This document shows positions 17,523 to 55,944 of a stretch of 64,000 nt of DNA, one piece after another. The position numbers and the translations under genes were made by a program. The notes beneath the pieces are model-generated. The model made no database searches and had not been told where the DNA came from. It saw nothing but the letters and a program-made list of their open reading frames with translations. The first letter of the stretch is position 1, and the number at the start of each line of letters is the position of its first letter. Origin of the DNA: Octopus sinensis (lineage: Eukaryota); contig NC_043010.1 in assembly GCF_006345805.1 (NCBI RefSeq), positions 31,744,001 to 31,808,000 on the forward strand, read 5' to 3'.

Positions 17523-18000
17523 AATGGAATGTCAAGTTAAGAAAAACGAGCGTTTTCGACACCTGCGTGTTTTTCCTTTTAATCAAGGTTCTAAGGCTGC
17601 AAAAGCTGCTTGCGACATTTGTGCTGTGTATGGAGAAGGTGCCATAGCTGAAAGAGCCGCTCGTGATTGATATGCCAAGTTCAAAAATGGAAATTTTGAC
17701 CTCAAAACGCACCTTGTTCTGGCTGTCCAGTTGAGTTCAATGAAGAGCAATTAAACCAACTTTTGCATGAAAATTCTCGTCAAACAAGGGAACTGGCAGA
17801 GAAAATGGAATGCTCCCACACTGCTATAGAGAAGCATCTTCACTTCATGGGAAAAGTTCGGAAGTATGGAGCATGAGTTCTGTATGCTTTAAGTGGTTTG
17901 CTTGCTCATCACCGCTCAACTCATGGACACAAGCAATGATTTCTTTACCAAATCGTTACTGATGACAACAAATGGTGCCTGTATATCAATATGAAGCAGC
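17523..18000 (+). mobile_element. Mariner transposase 5' fragment, ending at a Penelope-like element
   Basis: MECQVKKNERFRH..GSKAAKAACDICAVYGEGAIAE..KFKNGNFDL; IVTDDNKWCLYIN then abrupt end. Confidence 0.85.
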
Positions 18001-18150
18001 ATATAATACATTTTGTTGAATGTTTTCTTAAATACTTTCTTGTAAATTGTTTTTAACATTTTCTTATTATTATCAAAGAATGTATACATGTATTTTAATA
18101 CTTTTGTGACAACCAGTACTTAACACAACAAAGCTTATATAAAGCCTTAC

Positions 18151-18200
18151 ATTTTACTTTTGACAATCTTTTTCTAAAAATGTGAAACCAGTCAAGTGAA
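18151..18200 (+). ncRNA. Hammerhead fold in 5' pLTR, U3-A8 core variant
   Basis: Stem I tttactt/aagtgaa; core TTGACAA 18160-18166; GAAA 18184-18187; ccag-TC; stems II and III partly decayed. Confidence 0.6.
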
Positions 18201-19506
18201 TAAGCATCTTTAAAGTTGCATTTTCAAACCTTCTTTCATATATATTCCCACTCGTGTGGGTACCTTACAACTTCACTTTCTTATATATATAAACACCACA
18301 CGAGTCCTGAAAATGCCACCTAAGTCATAACAAACAGAAAAGTTATTGAACCAAAGCATCCTAAAAAAATTACAGGAAATCTCCAAACTTTCAACCCTAA
18401 CTAACAAAGTCATGCAATCACAATTATACCTAAATGGACTCCTGGAGGCTGAAACAGTTAATCAAACTCCTGACATCATCTGAACATTACAAAATCTAAT
18501 CAAATCTATAGAGACAACAATACTTCAAAAGCAGGAACACACTACAGACTATCACTCAATTAAAAACACTCTTAACATCTGGATTAAAAATCTCACAGCA
18601 TGAAAATTTGCTTTCTGGAACTTCATAAAAAATAATAACAAAGCAGACATTTATGAAAAGTGGCTCAACTCCACTTCAATCATCCTACCCCAAAAACTGC
18701 AAATAAAACCCATCCAAAATGAACCAGAAAATCAACAAACCCTCAAGGAGAAACTGGTTTTCGAAAAATTCAAAACAGAAATAGAACTAAGAGCCAATTC
18801 CAGTGAAGAACAATTCAAGGTCCTTGACAACGAAATGCAAATTGAAATTTCAAAATGCTGTGAAAGTGCACTCTTTGATAAAACCACCAAACTCTGGAGA
18901 AAAAACTGTGAGGATGAACTAACATCCCTCCAACGAAAGGAAAAAACACCTGGTTTGCCAGTTATGAAACGGAGTTCAAAAACGAACACCTTATAAGCAA
19001 CACATTTTTAAAAAAAATAACTACAACCCACACACCTCACCAACAACAAAGAAAACAAATCACAAAACATCAAACATGCACCACTCCTAACTTTGACAAC
19101 AACAATAACAGAACTTACAGACAGCACTATAACCCTATCAAAAGAACCCAGGCACCCACCAACCCAAGACAAAACTTTACCAGGCACTGTAGATCCCAGC
19201 CGACACAAGAACTGTTCCAAAATCAGGGATTCTACCCATCACATAGGAATTCACCTCTAAACCATGATTGTAGGTCCCAACCCAAACCGTTCCAAACTTG
19301 GAGATCCCACCTACCATATAAGAATTCACCTCTAAACCATGATTGTAGGTTCCAACCCACTCTAAGGAACCAAAATTACACCCAGTACGAACAACCCAGA
19401 CCCCGGAATAACCAAAACCCCTTTAGTAGGCAACACATCAAAATACTGCAGACAGAAGAACCCCCAGAAATCATTTTTTAGGCTAAGGCAACAGAATCCA
19501 CAACAG

Positions 19507-21135
19507 ATGGTAGATACCAACCCTGTAAAACCAAAAATATTGAATCTCTCAAACCTAAACCTGTCGACCCAACAAATCAAAATCCTTTCAAAAGGACTAA
19601 AATTCACTCCAACTCCACAATACTCTAACCTGAGTGAAATACAGGATGATGTCACACTTTTGCAGAAAATTACGCCTCACAGAGGAATTTTTTGACAAAG
19701 AAATCAATAACAATGAATCAATGGTTTGTAACAAAAGCAGTTATAATCCCACAAAAGGCAGAAACAAAACTGGATAAATTTTGTGACTACATTTCAAACT
19801 TTCCTTATAGTGAACTTCCACAGCCTAAACCCAACATCAGTAAAAGGGAATGGGAAATCATCTACAAGTTACGAAACAATCATGATATCACAATCAAGGA
19901 AGCAGATAAGGGTAGTACTGTCATCATTATGGATACTGGACAATACAAAAACTCTGTATCTCACCTTTTACAAGATACTATCTACTATGAAAGAGTAGTC
20001 AACTACCAACAGTCAAAAACAATGACCAAATTAAACACACTCATTTGCCAAGATCGAAACAACTTAACAGCAAAGGAATGCGACTACATAACAAACTTGA
20101 ATTGCAAAACCAGCATCCTCTAAGGGCTTCCAAAAATCCACAAGAGCAAAATTATTACCAAAGCTTGCAAAAAGTCCACTTCAACCTGCATAACTGTGCC
20201 AGATCCTACTGATCTCAAAATGAGACCAATTGTGGCAGGCCCAAACTGTGAAGCACACAGATTAAGCAATTTTATTGATACCATCCTAAAACCAATACTG
20301 AAACACATACCAAGTATTGTAAGAGATGACCTGGACCTATTAAATCATCTCCCCAAACATACCAATAAAGACATTTTAATTGTCTCCTTTGATGTAATAA
20401 ACCTTTACACTATGATCCCACATGAATATGGACTGGAAGCCATTAAATTTTGGCTAGAAAATACCCCAATGAGGTCCTGGAAAGAATAAAAAAGAATTCA
20501 TCACTGAGGGCTTTAAGTTTATTTTCCAAAACAACTTTTTTTAATTTTAATAATAACACCTACAGACAGGTGTCAGGGACTGCAGTGGGTACTAAAGTTG
20601 CTCCTACTTATGCAAACCTGGTGATGGCCTACCTAGAATTACAAATTTATGAAGAATCCAAATATAAGTATGACCTGTCGTTCCACAAATACCTGTTGGA
20701 GAATTGGAAATGCTGCTTGGATGATTGCCTTATCCTATGGTCCCACACACTCGACCAACTTATTGATTTCAAAAGCTTAATCAACAGTGTCAACAACCAT
20801 ATCCAATTTACAATGGAATATAGTCAAGACCAACTTCCTTTTCTTGACATTCTTATAAAAAAAGGCACCAACATTGAAACTGATATCCACTACAAACCAA
20901 CTGATTCCAAATAATACCTTCTGTTCACCTCCAATCACCCAAAGCACACGAAGACAAACATCCCCTTCAACCTAGCGAGAAGAATCTGTACAATTGTCTC
21001 AAATTATAGAACATGAAATAAAAGACTCCAAGAACTAAAGGCAATTCTTCTTGAAAGACATTATCCAGCATCATTAGTTGACAATGGAATAGACCGGGCC
21101 AAGAAAATTACTACCCAAGACTTACGAAAACCATA
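19507..21135 (+). pseudogene. PLE reverse transcriptase (frameshifted)
   Basis: Consecutive ORF pieces 19507-19695, 19692-20123, 20196-20489 and 20450-20914 carry ordered RT motifs; thumb NIPFNLARRI follows. Confidence 0.9.
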
Positions 21136-22080
21136 CCTACATATATACAGACACACAAATGCATACTCAACACCAGCATACACAAAACGCACATGCACAC
21201 ACATACACACCACCCAGATAAACCCAACACACAGAACCCCTGATAAATACAACACATTTGCACACACATACACACCCACACATACCCATACACATACATA
21301 TGCACCCTCACACACACATACGGTTGCTCACATACACATAGACACCACAAGGACAAAACACAAGCATACTCAGACACAACACATACACTCATGTACACAC
21401 GCATAACATCCCCACCATCACAAAATACACAAGCATACACACGCACACACACAGATGCACACATACATATGCACCCTCACACACATGGTTACTCACACAC
21501 ACACACACACCACAAGGACAATTAAAACAGCACAAACATACTCAGACAGAGACACATACACACTCACGTACACACATAACATCCCACCAACACAAAACAC
21601 AAACATACATGCACACACACAGACGCACACCCAAACAAACATAAACACACATGCGCACACACAACACCCCCATAAATACCAATCACACACATACACACAC
21701 AACACACACATACTCAGACAGAAACTCACACACACTCACATACACACACATACCATCCCCACCAACACAAAACACACAAACATGCACGCACCCACATACA
21801 CACATGCACGCACCCACATACACACATGCACACACACGAACAAACACATACACAGACATGCGCACACACAACACCCTAACAAATATTAATCACACACATA
21901 TACACACACACAAACGTGCACACACATACACACACCATCCTACCAAATATAAAACACACACATCCATTTACACATGCCACGATAAACTCTGGGACCAATC
22001 AAAAATGGCCCACACACATAAACACATGTATATACACACACATATAGAGACGTGCACAGAGACACATACACTCACACCAT
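21135..22080. repeat. Cryptic CA-rich low-complexity tract inside the PLE
   Basis: Degenerate (CA)n with internally repeated blocks such as caccacaaggacaa and catactcagaca. Confidence 0.85.
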
Positions 22081-22502
22081 TCTGACCTCTAAGACCTGTC
22101 CCAAAATCCACTGCACTATGACAGACTAGCAACGAAACAAAAAAATCCTTTTAATTCCACATTGCTCTTCCTTCCCTCAACCCCAACCTACCTCCCACAC
22201 TGTCCCTTAAAATAGCAAACAATCCTTAGCTACACACAAAATAAAAAATGCCAGGAATACAGATTGGTTCCTCTCAAATTCTTTGTAGACTCTTAAATAT
22301 ATCTCCTTCTGTGTATATATAAACTACCAAACAAACATGATTTTTATTGAACTCCTAATACTTTTTGTTGAATATTTTCTTAAATACTTTCTTGTAAACT
22401 GTTTTTATCATTTTCTTATTATTATCAAAGAATGTATATATGTATTTTAATACTTTTGTGACAACCAGTACTTAAAATAACAAAGCTTATATAAAGCCTT
22501 TC

Positions 22503-22552
22503 ATTTTACTTTTGACAATCTTTTTATAAAAAAGTGAAACCGGTCAAGTGAA
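22503..22552 (+). ncRNA. Hammerhead fold in 3' pLTR, U3-A8 core variant
   Basis: Stem I 7 bp; TTGACAA 22512-22518; stem II cttttt/aaaaag; GAAA 22536-22539; palindromic accggt; GTC. Confidence 0.75.
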
Positions 22553-22632
22553 TAAACATCTTTAAAATTGCCTTTTCAAACCTTCTTTTATATATATTTC
22601 CGCTCGTGTGGGTACCTTACAATTTCACTTTG

Positions 22633-22664
<32 letters not shown>

Positions 22665-23735
22665 CGAAACAAAAAATCCTTTTAATTCCACATTGCTCTT
22701 CCTTCCCTCAACCCCAACCTACCTCCCACACTGTCCCTTAAAATAGCAAACAATCCTTAGTTACACACAAAATAAAAAATACCAGGAATACAGATTGGTT
22801 CCTCTCAAATTCTTTGTAGACTCTTAAATATATCTCCTTCTGTGTATATATAAACTACCAAACAAACACCCATGCTAGCATGGAGAACGGACGTTAAACG
22901 ATGATGATATATATATACTCCGTCCAGTAACGAGTTTCAGACCTGTGCTGATATCCAGCAATTTGTGTGCCATGTCAGGCTACATCCACTATCCCACAAC
23001 ACTTCACCTGTGTCTAATGAAGAAGACTGCTTCACTGACCTGGGCCAATGACCATCCCACTGGATGCCAACTCCTGACCAGTTCCAAGCAGTTGATCAAT
23101 TTGCAAGCATCTGTCAATGTGTTGTAGGGTGGTTCAACTTTGGGGTAGTTGTTGCAACAACTACCCCAAAAGCATACTCTCCAATTAGGAAGAAGGGATA
23201 GGATGAAACCGATAATCTGTCCACCGTTTGTCTACCCTATGTGAAAGGCCTCTCCAAAAAGATACAAAAGATATGTGGCCCATATGACAAGGATAGTATT
23301 CAAAAGTAATACAACACTTCGCATATATCTCCTTCGAGTTAAACCACCAATCGAAAAGAATATGACAAAGAACTGCGTGTCCTCCATCCCATGCAGCTGT
23401 GGTAGGTTATACAAAGGCGAAACATGCCACCTCCTCAAAATAAAGGTAGAGAAACATCGCAAAGCTGTGACACAGGGAAATATTGATCAATCAGGTATAG
23501 CTGATCATTTATGGAAAAATGGAGACTACCTCCCCCCGTGGGATGAAGTTAAAATAATGGACAGAGAACACCACTGGAAAATACAAAAACTAAAAGAAGC
23601 AGCACATATGCTAGGACACAACAACCTCCTAAGCAGATCGAGTGCAGATATGAACAGCATATGGGAACTAGTATTAAGGAAGGATAGGAGAATATTAGAT
23701 TTATAAGCCCTAAAATTCACTCCATAATTGCCCGC

Positions 23736-23809
23736 GGGCATATGGCTTAGCGGTTAAGAGCGCGGGCTACTAACCCCAAAATTCCGAGTTCAATTCCAGG
23801 CAGTGACCT
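23736..23809 (+). promoter_or_regulatory. tRNA-like Pol III internal promoter
   Basis: A box TGGCTTAGCGG 23743-23753; B box GAGTTCAATTCC 23786-23797; anticodon-like arm ggg-ctactaa-ccc. Confidence 0.7.
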
Positions 23810-23863
23810 GAATAATAATAATAATAATAATATTAATAATAACCTTAGGAACGAGACACCAAG

Positions 23864-23906
23864 ACACCTGATGAAGTCTGGAGGGTATATCAGCTGAAAC
23901 ATGTTA
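23864..23906 (+). ncRNA. Hammerhead fold, stem I damaged
   Basis: CTGATGA 23868-23874; stem II ag(t)ctg/cagct; GAAA 23896-23899; palindromic acatgt. Confidence 0.6.
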
Positions 23907-24029
23907 ACAACAAACAAGATGAGGACAAATATTCGTCAATTGTAAATAATGTACATAATGCCTCATCTCTTAAATATAGAAGTGTAACTTCTCTTTTACT
24001 ATTCCTAATTCCTCTGTCAACTCAGGCTT

Positions 24030-25850
24030 TGCAGTGACAACCATGATTTTGAGAGACAGCTCACCACTTCACCCTACATGGATATCTCCTCACCATTATC
24101 CACACTGCCATCGTCCTGTAAATTTTGGATTGTGCCTCTACTCTTTCTCCTCACACCCACCCTACTCTTACCCATCTCCCATTCCCCTTCCTCTACCACC
24201 CCTCCAAAGCACCATTCTCTGAGTCTTCCGGGAATTCCAGTTTGACCCATCATCTTGCACATTTTCCCTAACCCAACCTTTACCTCCTTCAAATGAGTCC
24301 TGTGTGACCTCCTGGTCCACAGTCTCTTTTCTACCCCTGTCTCCCAGCTTGGCTCCTTCTGCTCTCGCCCACGCTGTTGCACTTACCCCTTCCTCTCCAA
24401 CATCACTGTCCTCACAGGCACCCTCCCATCACAGCATCGATTCCTTTACCTGCACATCCAGTAATGTTATTTACTGCATCTTCTGCTCTCTCTGTCCTTC
24501 CTGGTACATTGGTCAAATGGGACATTGCTTGGCTGACTGGTTTGCAGAGCACCTCCTAAACATCTGACTTGGCAATTACACCCTGGTCTCATGCCATTTC
24601 TGCTCTACTGGTCATTCGCTACATCTGTTTGTGTTTGGATTGTCTCTGCACAGGGCCCACCCATACTCTCACCTTCACCATGAGCAGGAATTAATCTTCT
24701 CCCTTTGTTCCTTTGCACCTTATGGGTTCAACTTGCTACCTCTTTTCATCTGACACCACCTCACACAGATTGCCTCAGTACTCTCACCACATACACACCA
24801 CTATTCAGACACCCATACACACTGTTCAACTCATTACTCACTTCACACACCATTACACTCACACCCACAAAAACCTTCCCACTCCATACACACTACCACC
24901 AAACACTTCTCAGTACCTACATCACACACTATTATCCACATACCCACACACACTCTTCAATAGCATCCTCACACATACCACTATATGAACATCGCTATGC
25001 ACTGTTTAACTCAGTACACACACCATCATCCACACTCCCACACCAACACAAGCATGTAATGCCTAAACACTGACTATATACACACACACACATTCAACAT
25101 GCATAAATACAGATAACTTTCACCTAGAAACATATACTATACACATGCACACTATATGGTCACAGTCACACACACACATACATACATGCTCACGCCACCT
25201 GAACAGGCACATATCAACTGTTAAATGCAAGTATTTGCACATGCGCACACACATACACACACGCACATGTTAGCCTCACACATATACACATGATGATATG
25301 CATACTCACACATATACACATATACACAGATATACAAATACATAAAATGCACATTTCTCTACACAACACATACACTAGGTTACTTGTACACATAGGCCAA
25401 TGTGTTTGCACACACACACACACACACATACATACTAGTATATGTAACACATACAACTCCACATAATGTATGCACTGGGTCATTTCCAAACATACACAGG
25501 TCCACATATTTTTCAGCTTGCTCACACATACTCACACACTTACCCTTATTCATACATACACACTCATTCACACCATTCTTACATATACGTGTGTGCAAGA
25601 ATAAATTTGTTCAGCCGTCAGCCTTCTTCTGGCTATTTCGTCATGTTGAACTGTTAATTGCTAAAAAAATGTTTTTTCTCTCTCAATTTTTTTCATTTTC
25701 TCTCCTTTTTTTCTTATTCTTTTCTATTGAAGATCATAGGCTTGAAATGTAAAAGACAGTTCCATTCTTCCTGAGCATTAAACCAATACACCTGCTTGTT
25801 TTCATACACCTGTCTTTGTCTTTTGTTTTCTGCAAATTTGAATAATACAC
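24030..25850 (+). mobile_element. 5'-truncated PLE (Neptune-like): GIY-YIG remnant, CA-rich spacer, pLTR
   Basis: FTCTSSNVIYCIFCSLCPSWYIGQ..FAEH..EQELIFSL..PYGFN; CA-rich 24750-25590; terminal module also present at 45980-46170(-). Confidence 0.8.
25719..25756 (+). ncRNA. Degenerate hammerhead-like motif (core CTATTGA)
   Basis: ttt-CTATTGA-agatcataggctt-GAAA-tg-TA-aaa; homologous to 46066-46105(-). Confidence 0.4.
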
Positions 25851-28390: not shown

Positions 28391-29098
28391 GAAGAGGTCA
28401 GAAAAATGTACAGATGAAGAAATATTCCCAATCAAGGATATTTGTACATTTTAGCTTGTCAAAAATGGAGGAAAAGATCAGAGTAAAATAAATATGCGTT
28501 ACACATTTTCATGATCAAATAGATAATAAAGTTATAGGTAAGGCCCATTAACAATTTTAAATGAGAATGTTTGATGATAATCCATGGCAAGGAATAATGG
28601 AAGTTATCAGTTCCATTTTTGAAAGGAGAATGAATTTGGGTTGAGTAGAAATAACATACTACAGTGTGAAGGAAAGACAGAATGTATATTCTCTATATAC
28701 ACACACATATACTTCCTTTATTTGTAGATTTTCAACTCTACATTAGGTGTTGTACATTACATTCCTGAAATAGTGTCAAAATCAAAAGTTAACAAATAAA
28801 AGAAAGTATTTATCCACTAGTGCCGTGTTGAGTATTCATCCTCATTGTTTACATCAAATGTGTGTGTGTATGTATATATATATATATATATACCCATGCT
28901 AGCATGGAAAGCGGACGTTAAACGATGATGATGATGATGATATGTATATATATATATATATATTAGAAGGTTTGGAGATGATGTACAGGTATTTTATATT
29001 AGAAGAAATGAGGTACTCATAAATTCGAATGGTTTTATATTTACAGATATTTATTTGTATATTACATGTTTTTATACATCATATAACTTATATCATAT

Positions 29099-29135
29099 AT
29101 TAGCACTTTCGTCCATTCTGGTGGATTTTTCAAAT
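29099..29135 (-). ncRNA. Degenerate hammerhead fold in a PLE-type terminal module
   Basis: Minus strand TTGAAAA-atcca-ccagaa-tggac-GAAA-gtgc-TA; stem I only 2 bp. Confidence 0.45.
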
Positions 29136-29279
29136 TGAACTAAGTTCCTGTGGAAAAATTTTGACCATTTTATAGTGTTATTGAGTGTGTAGTAGTGGGG
29201 AGGGATATAAGATAGTACAAGAGGGTGATGAATGGGGAGAAAGTGAGAGAGAGCATGTGTGTGAGTGTGCGTGTGTGCA

Positions 29280-49139: not shown

Positions 49140-49856
49140 GTACAAAACACCACACCCAATTTTCCATTCCTGAACGTCATTCCTCTGCAGGTCTCTCCTT
49201 GCTCATGGAAGTCCAGAGGTGCTAAATCTGGCGAATAGGGTGGGTGTAGAAGTGATACCATGTTGTATTTCGCAAGAAACTCACAAATGAAGAGAACTTG
49301 GTGACAGGGTGCATTGTCATTGTGAAGAATCCAATTTTTTGCCCTTCACAGGTCTGGTTGCTTTCACCAAATGTCTTCCCTCAAATGCTTCAAAACATCG
49401 TTGATTCTTCTCCAATGATCCTCATGCGCAAGCTGATAAATTTTCTCCACATTTCTGGGGGTGATGCTCATGGCAGGTCTTCGACATTGCTCATCATCTT
49501 CCAGGGACATTCTTCCGCATTTGAGGTACATGTGCCACTTGAAACGTTGTGTACGACCCATTGCCTCATTGCTGCAAGTTTGCTGAAGTATGCTCAATGT
49601 TTCTGTAGCAGTTTAACTCAGAATTTCACGTTGGCTCTTTGTTCCAACTTCCTGTCCATGACAAAAATCACAGACTACAGCATGCATGTGATCCCCAAAA
49701 TACAAATTTCACAACTTGCAAAGTAAACACAGGGATGTCACTTGGCACACTGGCTCACGAAGGTCATTGCTAGCTGTCACTGCACACGCAACCATGTGCT
49801 GCGATCTGTTCGTGTGCTACAGAACTAGTCGGGGAACTTTTTGATACCATCTCATA
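49140..49856 (-). mobile_element. Internally deleted mariner remnant
   Basis: TIR-like end tatgagatggtatcaaaaagttcccc; GRMSLEDDEQCRRP; HNDNAPCH and HPPYSPDLAP motifs. Confidence 0.88.
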
Positions 49857-50099
49857 CGTACTTTTTAAACCTTTATGCTCATTAGTACTCAGCTGTATAT
49901 GAGATGACAAGGATTTTCTCAAATGCCTCCCACCCACTGTCTCAGAAGGAACTAATCTTTAAGTTTCGTTTTAAGCAAACTTTATACTAATATACTTCAC
50001 ACTTTATGCCTGGAAGCAACCAATCAAAAACCGGGTAGGGAAACATAGAGGGAATATAAACAAATGCTTCAAAATGGATTTCGTTACCAAAGACACACA

Positions 50100-50525
50100 C
50101 CTGATACTACAGAAGAATACCTTTAGCTTTGCTGGTAAAATATATCAACAAATAAAGGACTCAGTTATGGGAACAAAATTTGCACTTACATTCTTCATAT
50201 GCTAATGTAGTGATGGGATATTTAGAAGAGAAATTATACAAGGGAGTAGAGAAAACTTTTATTTTTTGAGAGAAATCAAATGATCTACAAATATTCAATA
50301 ACATTTTGAACACCCTTCATCCATCTATTAAATTCATGACAGAAACCAGCCATAATAATTTACCTTCTTAGACATTCATGTAAAAATACACAAATTCACA
50401 ATGGATATTTATTACAAAACAAAAAACAGACACATCAATATTTGAACTTTTACTCTCGTCAACCTTCACACATCAAATGGAATATTCAATATAGAATGAC
50501 AAGATGTATTTGTTCAATAGTTGTT
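50100..50525 (+). mobile_element. PLE reverse-transcriptase fragment
   Basis: FSFAGKIYQQ..VMGTKFA, YANVVMGYLE, LHPSIKF, DIYYK, QYLNF. Confidence 0.8.
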
Positions 50526-54678: not shown

Positions 54679-55025
54679 GGTAAATATATTCAAAAAGAAT
54701 ATTATGTACTGAATTTATATTGAGTGCTCAATTGTATCAAAATATTAATACTATTAAAGTATAATGAACTATATTTGGATTACCGGATAATATAATGAAT
54801 TTTATGCAAAAGTATTATGGATTGCTGCAGAGAAATTACCAAGAAGACATGTGAATTTCAAGATTCTCATACTAAAATATATACAAGTACTTTCACATGG
54901 GTATATCTTCATTATGAGTTTGGATATTAATTTCCTTATATTAATGATAATAATATATTATTAAAAAAAATATATATATGTATATATATATATATATATG
55001 TTATCATTTAGAACAAACAATAACC

Positions 55026-55066
55026 GCCCGTTGACAAGGGACAAAAATCCCGAAACTAGTCCGAGC
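55026..55066 (+). ncRNA. Minimal type I hammerhead, U3-A8 core variant
   Basis: gcccg-TTGACAA-ggga-caaaaa-tccc-GAAA-ctag-TC-cgagc; palindromic stem III actagt. Confidence 0.8.
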
Positions 55067-55944
55067 ATATCACTCAGGCTTGTGAGGAGGGGATGGCCTC
55101 CCTTTGCAAATACTTCAAGGGCACTGAAATGGTGTCTAAAGCCAGCTGGAGACGACGATCTCCTGGGACTATAAAGCTACAGTAACACCCCCTCCCCTAT
55201 GTGGTTAGCCATATTAAGATGGCTTCTATACTTTACATTATCGAGCGATTACTGTTTACATCTCATTCTGAGATTTAATAATGCAAACAATAAAAGGTTG
55301 TCATTATAGTGTTTGGAGTTTCGAATGTTGAATCAAGGAGCTATTATACATTCTTGTCAGCTATTAATGGCAACAGACACTATGTGAAAAAAAACAAAAA
55401 ACATTGAATAAAAGTTACTCTGATAGGTAGAAAAAGCAAAAAAAAAACAAGATAAAAAATACACGCAACCATATTCTCTTGGATTATGTTTTAATTAAAT
55501 TGCTACAATTATACTAAACTACACAAACACACATATATATGTGTACATGTGTTTATGTGTGTATGACAAACACACACATATATATATATATATAATATAT
55601 ATATATATACAAACACATAAGAGATAACCAAAAAATAGGATATCTGACTCACTAGAAAGAGCAGTTAAACTCCAAGCCACTATTTGTTGTAATTCTGAAA
55701 GTGAATGAAAAATAAAAACTTTTACCTTATTGCCCTAGACTATGCATAATTCCTGCTGGCTTAAATATAGATTGAAATAAAATAATTCCAATCTATATCT
55801 GGTGCTGCTTCTTCAGTAGGATGCCAGGGATCAAACACATAGACACGGGGCAATAAATAAACAATGAACCCCACAGAACCAATATAACCCCAATGAAGAA
55901 CAACAACACCAAGTCATATAACTTAAGAAAACCATACAGAAATA

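What the first reader, a model, noticed from the sequence alone, without database searches (positions are those of the whole stretch)
18151..22552. Both pseudo-LTRs of a Penelope-like element carry the same U3-A8 hammerhead core
TTGACAA is present in both repeats (18160 and 22512) although they differ at many other positions, so it predates insertion. The stems are unrelated to the 55.0 kb ribozyme, so the variant occurs in at least two families. A third, weaker case is TTGAAAA at 29.1 kb.
Basis: partly seen in the sequence, partly recalled or inferred. Interest (0 to 1): 0.72.

Follow-up and report, generated by a model that had tools for sequence, protein, structure and literature searches.

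The report
Penelope retrotransposon's swapped-core hammerhead ribozyme
Both ends of a broken Penelope-like jumping gene carry a hammerhead-shaped RNA motif, predicted to cut itself, in which one core base pair is U-A instead of the usual C-G; this swap is already published, and here it is the normal form in a whole group of related jumping-gene families with about ten thousand matching sites in the genome.

Summary
Observation confirmed. TTGACAA lies at 18160 and 22512 inside complete minimal type I hammerhead layouts, in two 93%-identical pseudo-LTRs of a decayed Neptune/Nematis-type Penelope-like element whose endonuclease is deleted in this copy. U3-A8 is the family norm: 27 of 27 readable copies picked without regard to the core, 0 C3-G8. 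Genome-wide, among motifs with a 4-nt palindrome, U3-A8 gives 10,541 matches, C3-G8 1,508, U3·G8 830 and C3·A8 707; a separate family adds about 7,800, mostly C3-G8. Five U3-A8 RT families of this genome form one clade. Relatives from other hosts mostly keep C3-G8 (8 C3-G8, 1 doubtful, 1 U3-A8). The 55.0 and 29.1 kb cases are real families. However, U3-A8 in Penelope pseudo-LTRs (about 1,300 hits in Schistosoma; Cervera and De la Peña 2014) and this family's U10.1·U11.1 stem II closure (Perreault 2011) are published. The likely mechanism is slow dimer cleavage after GUC, untested; the 5' copy here has lost its palindrome. This scan has noted U3-A8 hammerheads elsewhere in this genome several times. 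New member of a known kind; modest interest.

The parts
18003..18290 (+). 5' pseudo-LTR (3' end of an upstream partial copy), running straight on into the 5' UTR
   Evidence: 268/287 identical to 22356-22643; collinear with the full relative L113 from 18151 on
18153..18200 (+). Minimal type I hammerhead, U3-A8 core (18160-18166), U10.1·U11.1; predicted cut after C18193; palindrome broken (ACCAGU) and one stem II pair broken
18313..19520 (+). Decayed ORF1 (starts MPPKS; several stops and frameshifts); end approximate
   Evidence: translation compared with the intact 448-aa ORF1 of L113
19474..19480 (+). U UUU UUA slippery heptamer at the ORF1/RT overlap, RT in the -1 frame (frameshift inferred)
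19456..21163 (+). Decayed Penelope-type RT and thumb, residues 1-575 of the 776-aa frame of relative L112; the linker and GIY-YIG endonuclease are missing after about 21133
   Evidence: tblastn and blastn; same-subfamily copy L120 continues into the endonuclease; RVT_1 E=8e-8 on L112
21133..22355 (+). CA-rich 3' UTR of the family
   Evidence: matches family loci L119, L081, L022 and L023 at 70-79%
22356..22643 (+). 3' pseudo-LTR, ending in a (TA)n tract at about 22641-22662
22505..22552 (+). Minimal type I hammerhead, U3-A8 core (22512-22518), U10.1·U11.1, palindrome ACCGGU intact; predicted cut after C22545
55026..55066 (+). Second family: U3-A8 hammerhead with G10.1-C11.1 and palindrome ACUAGU, at the start of a 262-nt repeat piece (55023-55284)
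   Evidence: no hit to the tested Penelope proteins within 1.5 kb in 30 of 30 loci
29095..29140 (-). Third family: U3-A8 core (UUGAAAA), family palindrome AGCGCU (decayed here), weak stem I
   Evidence: 1 of 20 loci links to a Neptune-type endonuclease (42% identity)
23245..23915 (+). Contrast, not part of the element: 3' piece of another Penelope-like family with a GIY-YIG-like frame and a canonical C3-G8 hammerhead (core at 23868)
   Evidence: the GIY-YIG label is by eye, Pfam gave no such hit

Best explanation
The two motifs are the inherited minimal type I hammerheads of a Neptune/Nematis-type Penelope-like retrotransposon family in which U3-A8 replaces C3-G8, and they likely work as slow self-cleaving ribozymes that pair up through a short palindrome to cut the element's RNA after GUC. 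Shown: the layout, family-wide U3-A8, covariation of positions 3 and 8 and of stem I across families, and the location in both pseudo-LTRs. Inferred from known hammerhead biology: in read-through RNA of tandem copies, two ACCGGU palindromes form a shared 6-bp stem III, U3 pairs with A8 as C3 does with G8, and each strand is cut after C17, possibly with help from the element's protein. Inferred from the tree: the swap was fixed once in the ancestor of at least five RT families of this genome and arose separately elsewhere. This particular copy is a dead insertion (stops, frameshifts, endonuclease deleted, 5' palindrome broken).
For: Family state: 27 of 27 readable loci among 30 picked on the downstream flank only have U3 and A8, 23 of them TTGACAA. 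Genome counts against reversed controls: U-A 10,541/394, C-G 1,508/149, U·G 830/234, C·A 707/211, purine at position 3 1,630/1,927; the control-subtracted odds ratio is about 47 (my arithmetic). In 12 hand-picked sequences from different families, 3-8 is paired in 12 of 12 (7 UA, 5 CG) and all 5 stem I pairs show double changes. Families only 53-63% identical in RT keep UUGANAA with quite different stems. The palindrome duplex is predicted at -8.3 kcal/mol for the 3' copy, while the monomer hammerhead fold is unfavourable (+2.6 against an MFE of -7.9), as expected for a dimer-type ribozyme. Published: dimer requirement and low activity (PMC4209133); U3-A8 active in vitro and U10.1-U11.1 tolerated (PMC3088659); a protein-assisted Penelope hammerhead (PMC11167929).
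Against: No cleavage was tested. The family combines two departures (U3-A8 and no G10.1-C11.1) with an A/U-rich stem II, each expected to slow it. Single copies fold no better than shuffles. Within the family the hammerhead region diverges about as fast as its flank (2.8% against 3.3%; 13 core positions 1.4%), so selection is visible only between families. Copies are not independent, so the counts overstate the statistics, and the 12-row alignment was chosen by me and the structure read from it. In the anole element, cleavage was not needed for insertion in vitro and no RNA-seq reads ended at the site. Tree support is moderate (80/94; 97 SH-aLRT in an unfinished search), and the direction of change depends on rooting.
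Confidence: 0.75

Rival explanations
1. The motif keeps the hammerhead fold but is used mainly as a protein-binding or reverse-transcription-start structure near the element's 3' end; cleavage is negligible in vivo.
For: In the anole Penelope element, catalytic mutants did not affect insertion, reverse transcription starts nearby, and no reads end at the cut site (PMC11167929 passages). Here family copies end about 50-95 nt past the motif (22597 and about 22640). Stem II closes with U·U at 51 of 51 rows.
Against: All catalytic positions (U4, G5, A6, A9, G12, A13, A14, A15.1, U16.1) are invariant across 12 diverged sequences, position 17 is never G there, and the 3-8 pair covaries. That pattern is what catalysis requires.
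Confidence: 0.17
2. U3-A8 is an inactive relic produced by AT-biased or CpG mutation of C3 and G8 (CUGACGA to UUGACAA) in a dead ancestor and then copied passively.
For: Both changes are transitions towards A/T; with C7, G8 sits in a CpG; this family's motif is very AT-rich; unpaired U·G and C·A states exist (830 and 707 matches).
Against: The same pair is kept in families with N7 = A, C, G or U, with unrelated stems and GC-rich stem II, and in young copies with long open frames. Paired states outnumber unpaired ones about 8 to 1. The neighbouring C3-G8 family in the same genome stays C3-G8 in 90 of the 100 listed matches.
Confidence: 0.06
3. The two repeats were laid down by separate insertions, so their agreement says nothing about one element.
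For: They differ by 6.6%, about as much as two random family copies (mean 3.2% from the majority), and a 99%-identical duplicate of 22131-22337 follows the 3' repeat, showing later rearrangement.
Against: They share two non-majority variants (at 22492 and 22498 and their counterparts), and the 5' repeat runs collinearly into ORF1 as in the full relative L113. The point would not change the family-level result.
Confidence: 0.1

Closest known systems
Minimal type I hammerheads in pseudo-LTRs of metazoan Penelope-like elements, including the U3-A8 variant of Schistosoma mansoni (Cervera and De la Peña 2014, PMC4209133; parts 1-2 of 4 of the text read, supplement file 2 searched)
   Same: Position in both pseudo-LTRs, type I topology, palindromic rudimentary stem III, U3-A8 core (about 1,300 hits in S. 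mansoni), mostly solitary truncated copies, often in inverted pairs.
   Different: Here U3-A8 is the majority form of the 4-nt-palindrome class (10,541 against 1,508) and marks a clade of at least five RT families; this family lacks the 'highly conserved' G10.1-C11.1 pair.
Natural hammerhead core variants U3-A8 and U10.1-U11.1 (Perreault et al. 2011, PMC3088659; section 8 and passages read)
   Same: Both departures of this family are described there as natural and compatible with activity.
   Different: Described there as rare and separately; here they are combined in one amplified family and its sister subfamily, and U·U also occurs in 3 C3-G8 relatives from other hosts (L194, L196, L270).
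Neptune/Nematis clades of endonuclease-bearing Penelope-like elements (Craig et al. 2021, PMC8557442; passages read)
   Same: [quoted passage not shown]
   Different: This copy has lost the linker and endonuclease. The family has a separate ORF1 joined by a U UUU UUA site, whereas canonical elements are described as single-ORF (the Fig. 1 legend mentions an optional frameshift; I could not see for which clade).
Animal non-LTR retrozymes (bioRxiv 10.64898/2026.07.22.740005, part 1 of 5 read; PMC7229834, search listing only)
   Same: Type I hammerhead related to pseudo-LTRs; a candidate identity for the 55.0 kb unit.
   Different: The element of the finding is 4.35 kb between hammerheads and codes for RT, so it is not a retrozyme.

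Membership tests
Minimal type I hammerhead of Penelope-like elements | Conserved core U4 G5 A6 A9 G12 A13 A14, pair A15.1-U16.1, non-G at 17 | tested here: met
   Both copies; 9 departures in 663 cells at 13 core positions over 51 rows
Minimal type I hammerhead of Penelope-like elements | Watson-Crick pair between positions 3 and 8 | tested here: met
   U-A in 51 of 51 rows; 12 of 12 paired across families; genome counts
Minimal type I hammerhead of Penelope-like elements | Stem I of 4 or more base pairs | tested here: met
   7 bp with one G·U; double changes in 5 of 5 pairs across families
Minimal type I hammerhead of Penelope-like elements | Stem II closed by G10.1-C11.1 (usual, with published exceptions) | tested here: not met
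   U·U in 51 of 51 rows, followed by C-G and U-A pairs; U·U is a published tolerated exception
Minimal type I hammerhead of Penelope-like elements | Palindromic rudimentary stem III that allows a dimer | tested here: met
   ACCGGU is the family majority and present in the 3' copy (duplex -8.3 kcal/mol); broken in the 5' copy (+1.4; mixed pair -2.4)
Minimal type I hammerhead of Penelope-like elements | Self-cleavage after position 17 | not testable with these tools
   Needs an in vitro assay or RNA end mapping
Endonuclease-bearing Penelope-like element, Neptune/Nematis type | Penelope-type RT | tested here: met
Endonuclease-bearing Penelope-like element, Neptune/Nematis type | C-terminal GIY-YIG with a CX2-5CxxC linker | tested here: met
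   Met for the family: L112, L127 and L120; Pfam GIY-YIG E=0.0019 on L127, below its cut-off, none on L112. Deleted in the window copy
Endonuclease-bearing Penelope-like element, Neptune/Nematis type | Pseudo-LTRs, inverted truncated partners, (TA)n target | tested here: met
Neptune as opposed to Nematis | Placement with named reference RTs | not tested
   No named reference sequences were in hand; the trees hold unnamed rows only
Non-LTR retrozyme | Short non-coding tandem unit | tested here: not met
   The element codes for ORF1 and RT over about 2.8 kb

The most novel reading that the evidence does not exclude
U3-A8 was fixed once at the root of this genome's Neptune-like radiation, by way of an amplifiable U3·G8 intermediate, and has been kept through about 45% RT divergence because it tunes the ribozyme into a slow, protein-gated switch; the doubly non-canonical U3-A8 plus U10.1·U11.1 family is the extreme case, and the genome offers a natural series of all four states of the core pair to test.
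Probability: 0.2. Interest if true: 0.6.

Novelty: new member of a known kind. Interest (0 to 1): 0.3.

Why it matters
The swap itself is known. What the locus adds is scale and a phylogenetic frame. Roughly half of the minimal hammerheads that my patterns count in this genome have U3-A8 (10.5 thousand against about 8.5 thousand C3-G8), so searches that require CUGANGA would miss them and could score such elements as lacking a ribozyme. Retention of a covarying core pair across deeply diverged families argues that the catalytic fold is under selection in Penelope-like elements, where its role is still open. Natural U-A, C-G and U·G versions on related scaffolds give ready assay material.

Tried and rejected
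Rfam scan: no hammerhead family among the 150 of 199 matches listed; the listed ones are almost all microsatellite-driven miRNA hits. Repeat finder swamped by microsatellites. My first strict scan missed the 5' copy and the 55.0 kb motif because of single stem mismatches. Single-copy folding is uninformative. The idea that U3-A8 creates the core-sequestering misfold was rejected: a C3-G8 version computed in the script folds the same way (-8.1 against -7.9). The idea that U3-A8 marks the whole Neptune-like clade across animals was rejected: of 20 outside loci at 37-50% identity, 8 read C3-G8, 1 doubtful C3-G8, 1 U3-A8 and 10 gave no motif, many ending soon after the ORF. A single origin for all U3-A8 rows is weakly rejected (AU p=0.037 for this genome's rows plus L274; at least 3 changes). 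Purine at position 3 shows no excess over control in the 4-nt-palindrome layout, so the G3-C8 families in earlier notes are neither confirmed nor excluded. Expression: no RNA holder listed; the laid contigs cannot show RNA ends. Pfam on the broken window frames was nearly blank (RVT_1 E=0.037). Lünse et al. on about the same class of ribozymes is not held and may already cover these variants. Searches showed no paper on cephalopod Penelope hammerheads and no mapping of the 3-8 pair on an RT tree. Supplement file 1 of PMC4209133 could not be searched.
Full report
Observation. The sequence shows TTGACAA at 18160 and 22512. Each sits in a complete minimal type I hammerhead layout: stem I TTTACTT/AAGTGAA, core U3 U4 G5 A6 C7 A8 A9, a 17-nt stem II, GAAA, four bases and TC, with the predicted cut after C18193 and C22545. 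The two repeats (about 18003-18290 and 22356-22643) agree at 268 of 287 aligned bases. The 3' copy keeps the palindrome ACCGGT; the 5' copy has ACCAGT and one broken stem II pair. Rfam gave no hammerhead among the 150 of 199 matches listed, and single copies fold no better than shuffles, so one copy alone proves little.

The element. Between the repeats lie a decayed ORF1 (from 18313) and a decayed RT, 74-81% identical to residues 1-575 of a 776-aa open frame in relative L112. Intact relatives continue into a Cys-rich linker and a GIY-YIG-type C-terminus (Pfam RVT_1 E=8e-8, GIY-YIG E=0.0019 on L127 only), which is the Neptune/Nematis arrangement as defined in PMC8557442 (passages). In the window, similarity stops at about 21133 and jumps to the family's CA-rich 3' UTR, while same-subfamily copy L120 runs on through the endonuclease. 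The copy is therefore dead and lacks its endonuclease. It ends in (TA)n, like many family copies. The genome (G000, 2.72 Gb) looks cephalopod to me; that is an inference, and no call names the organism.

Is U3-A8 the family state? In 30 loci found with a query that held the core, 29 read TTGACAA and 1 TTGGCAA; two of these are the window's own repeats and three are identical to each other. To remove the bias I picked 30 loci on the downstream flank only. Of these, 27 have the motif upstream, all with U3 and A8 (23 TTGACAA), none with C3-G8, and 3 are truncated or inverted; one is the window's own copy and several overlap the first set. In 51 distinct rows aligned from 59 loci, U3, A8, U10.1 and U11.1 are each present in 51 of 51. 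No other letter was listed at 18160 or 18165 in contigs of four coded runs under four organism labels (4 rows not shown, and one run may be the window's source). The two window repeats share two non-majority variants, which fits a common template. Within the family the hammerhead region drifts about like its flank (2.8% against 3.3%; 13 core positions 1.4%), as expected for inserted copies that decay.

Other families. The 55.0 kb motif belongs to a different repeat: 29 of 33 distinct places read TTGACAA, with no hit to the tested Penelope proteins within 1.5 kb in 30 loci. The 29.1 kb motif belongs to a third family, TTGAAAA in all 19 loci printed of 20, mostly with an AGCGCT palindrome but a stem I of about 2 bp; one locus links it to a Neptune-type endonuclease. 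Among 20 RT-selected stretches, sister subfamily 1b has TTGACAA with a GUU site, a family at about 60% identity has TTGATAA and one at 53% has TTGAAAA, each with its own stems; my scan found no motif in 8 of the 20.

Genome-wide counts. For the layout core-N10-20-GAAACYRGTH, exact matches against reversed controls are: U3-A8 10,541/394, C3-G8 1,508/149, U3·G8 830/234, C3·A8 707/211, purine at position 3 1,630/1,927. After subtracting controls the odds ratio for pairing is about 47 (my arithmetic; copies are not independent). A second layout with a 2-nt stem III, the family next door at 23868, gives 7,827/275, and 90 of the 100 listed are C3-G8 (counted by eye). U3-A8 is thus about half of what these patterns count; other layouts were not counted. 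About 32 of the 100 listed U3·G8 matches are one sister subfamily of the 55.0 kb unit (by eye), a possible amplified intermediate.

Phylogeny. From metagenome and genome collections I fetched 97 loci, presumably animal DNA in microbial assemblies (inference). Of the 20 at 37-50% identity, 8 read C3-G8 (L192-L196, L201, L270, L271), 1 is doubtful (L204), 1 reads U3-A8 (L274) and 10 gave none. Three distant loci also read U3-A8 (L213, L234, L242). In a 50-row quick tree (the careful search did not finish), the 9 rows of this genome's five U3-A8 families fall in a 16-row clade (SH-aLRT 97) with 7 proteins of unknown core and no C3-G8 row, nested among C3-G8 rows under a midpoint root. In a careful 17-row tree (21 unknown-core proteins, 3 duplicate own rows and 9 distant rows left out), the six own rows form a clade at 80/94, sister to the other near rows; at least 3 changes are needed, and joining L274 to them is weakly rejected (p=0.037). 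The labels of L112 and L120 were taken from their subfamily, not read by the scan. So U3-A8 likely became fixed once in this radiation and arose separately elsewhere; the direction is likely C-G to U-A but depends on the root.

Structure across families. In 12 sequences chosen by me, U4, G5, A6, A9, G12, A13, A14, A15.1 and U16.1 are invariant; 3-8 is paired in 12 of 12 (7 UA, 5 CG); all 5 stem I pairs show double changes; 10.1-11.1 is unpaired in 6 of 12, which are the U·U rows. The structure was read from these rows, so the shuffle controls flatter it.

Mechanism. The monomer hammerhead fold is unfavourable (+2.6 kcal/mol for the 3' copy, against an MFE of -7.9 that buries the core), and a C3-G8 version behaves the same; two ACCGGU palindromes are predicted to pair at -8.3, the mixed 5'/3' pair at only -2.4. 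This fits the published model in which minimal hammerheads cut slowly as dimers in tandem transcripts (PMC4209133; review PMC6765202 passages), perhaps helped by the element's protein (PMC11167929 passages). That last paper also found cleavage dispensable for insertion in vitro and no RNA ends at the site, which keeps a structural role open. Cleavage here is untested.

Comparison and verdict. Cervera and De la Peña 2014 report U3-A8 minimal hammerheads in Schistosoma Penelope-like elements, about 1,300 hits. Perreault et al. 2011 report natural U3-A8 and U10.1-U11.1, and cite earlier in vitro activity. My searches showed no paper on this animal group or on mapping the pair to an RT tree, but Lünse et al. 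was not available and one supplement could not be searched. Earlier notes of this scan describe U3-A8 hammerheads elsewhere in this genome; none matched this family by sequence. The finding is real and correctly read, and it is a new member of a known kind. Interest 0.3. A side result, a U UUU UUA site in the -1 phase at the ORF1/RT overlap here and in outside relatives, may be more interesting than the core swap; this scan has also noted it in other genomes.

Noticed in passing
window 19474-19480; L113, L127, L128, L191, L192, L198, L200, L201: U UUU UUA heptamer at the ORF1/RT overlap with RT in the -1 frame, in the window and in 8 of the 17 other loci that gave a row (present but out of phase in decayed L123 and L129; absent in L124, L193, L202, L214, L266, L271; one search prints L192 twice). 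ORF1 is open for 468 codons in L113 and 420 in L192. Suggests programmed -1 frameshifting; no strong downstream hairpin was predicted.
   Followed up: partly
G000, e.g. C1:15699325-15699355 and C1:22017017-22017157: An amplified sister subfamily of the 55.0 kb unit has a U3·G8 wobble core and a GUU site (about 32 of the 100 listed); possible intermediate between C3-G8 and U3-A8.
   Followed up: no
G000 C1:20622810 and C1:103756475, C1:182078659-182079400: One stem II type (GAGGC...CCTC) occurs with both U3-A8 and C3-G8 cores, one pair in tandem at 359 bp spacing: a switch within a retrozyme-like lineage.
   Followed up: no
G000, e.g. C1:22487526-22487553: A repeated family with an apparent C3·A8 mismatch core and almost no stem II (about a dozen of the 100 listed).
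   Followed up: no
window 22663-22869: 99%-identical duplicate (204 of 206) of 22131-22337, directly after the 3' pseudo-LTR's (TA)n; much younger than the pseudo-LTR divergence. Recent local duplication or assembly artefact.
   Followed up: partly
window 22920-23940: 3' piece of another Penelope-like family (GIY-YIG-like frame 23245-23706, canonical C3-G8 hammerhead at 23868) right after the element; this family has about 7,800 matches.
   Followed up: partly
window 17700-18000: Decayed mariner-like transposase fragment directly upstream of the 5' pseudo-LTR (translation; family label recalled, from no call).
   Followed up: no
window 49780-50522 and 24439-24552: Further distant Penelope-like RT and endonuclease fragments (27-44% identity to L112).
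   Followed up: no
L270-L287: Penelope-like elements with hammerheads lie in contigs titled as bacterial genomes; probably animal host DNA in the assemblies.
   Followed up: no
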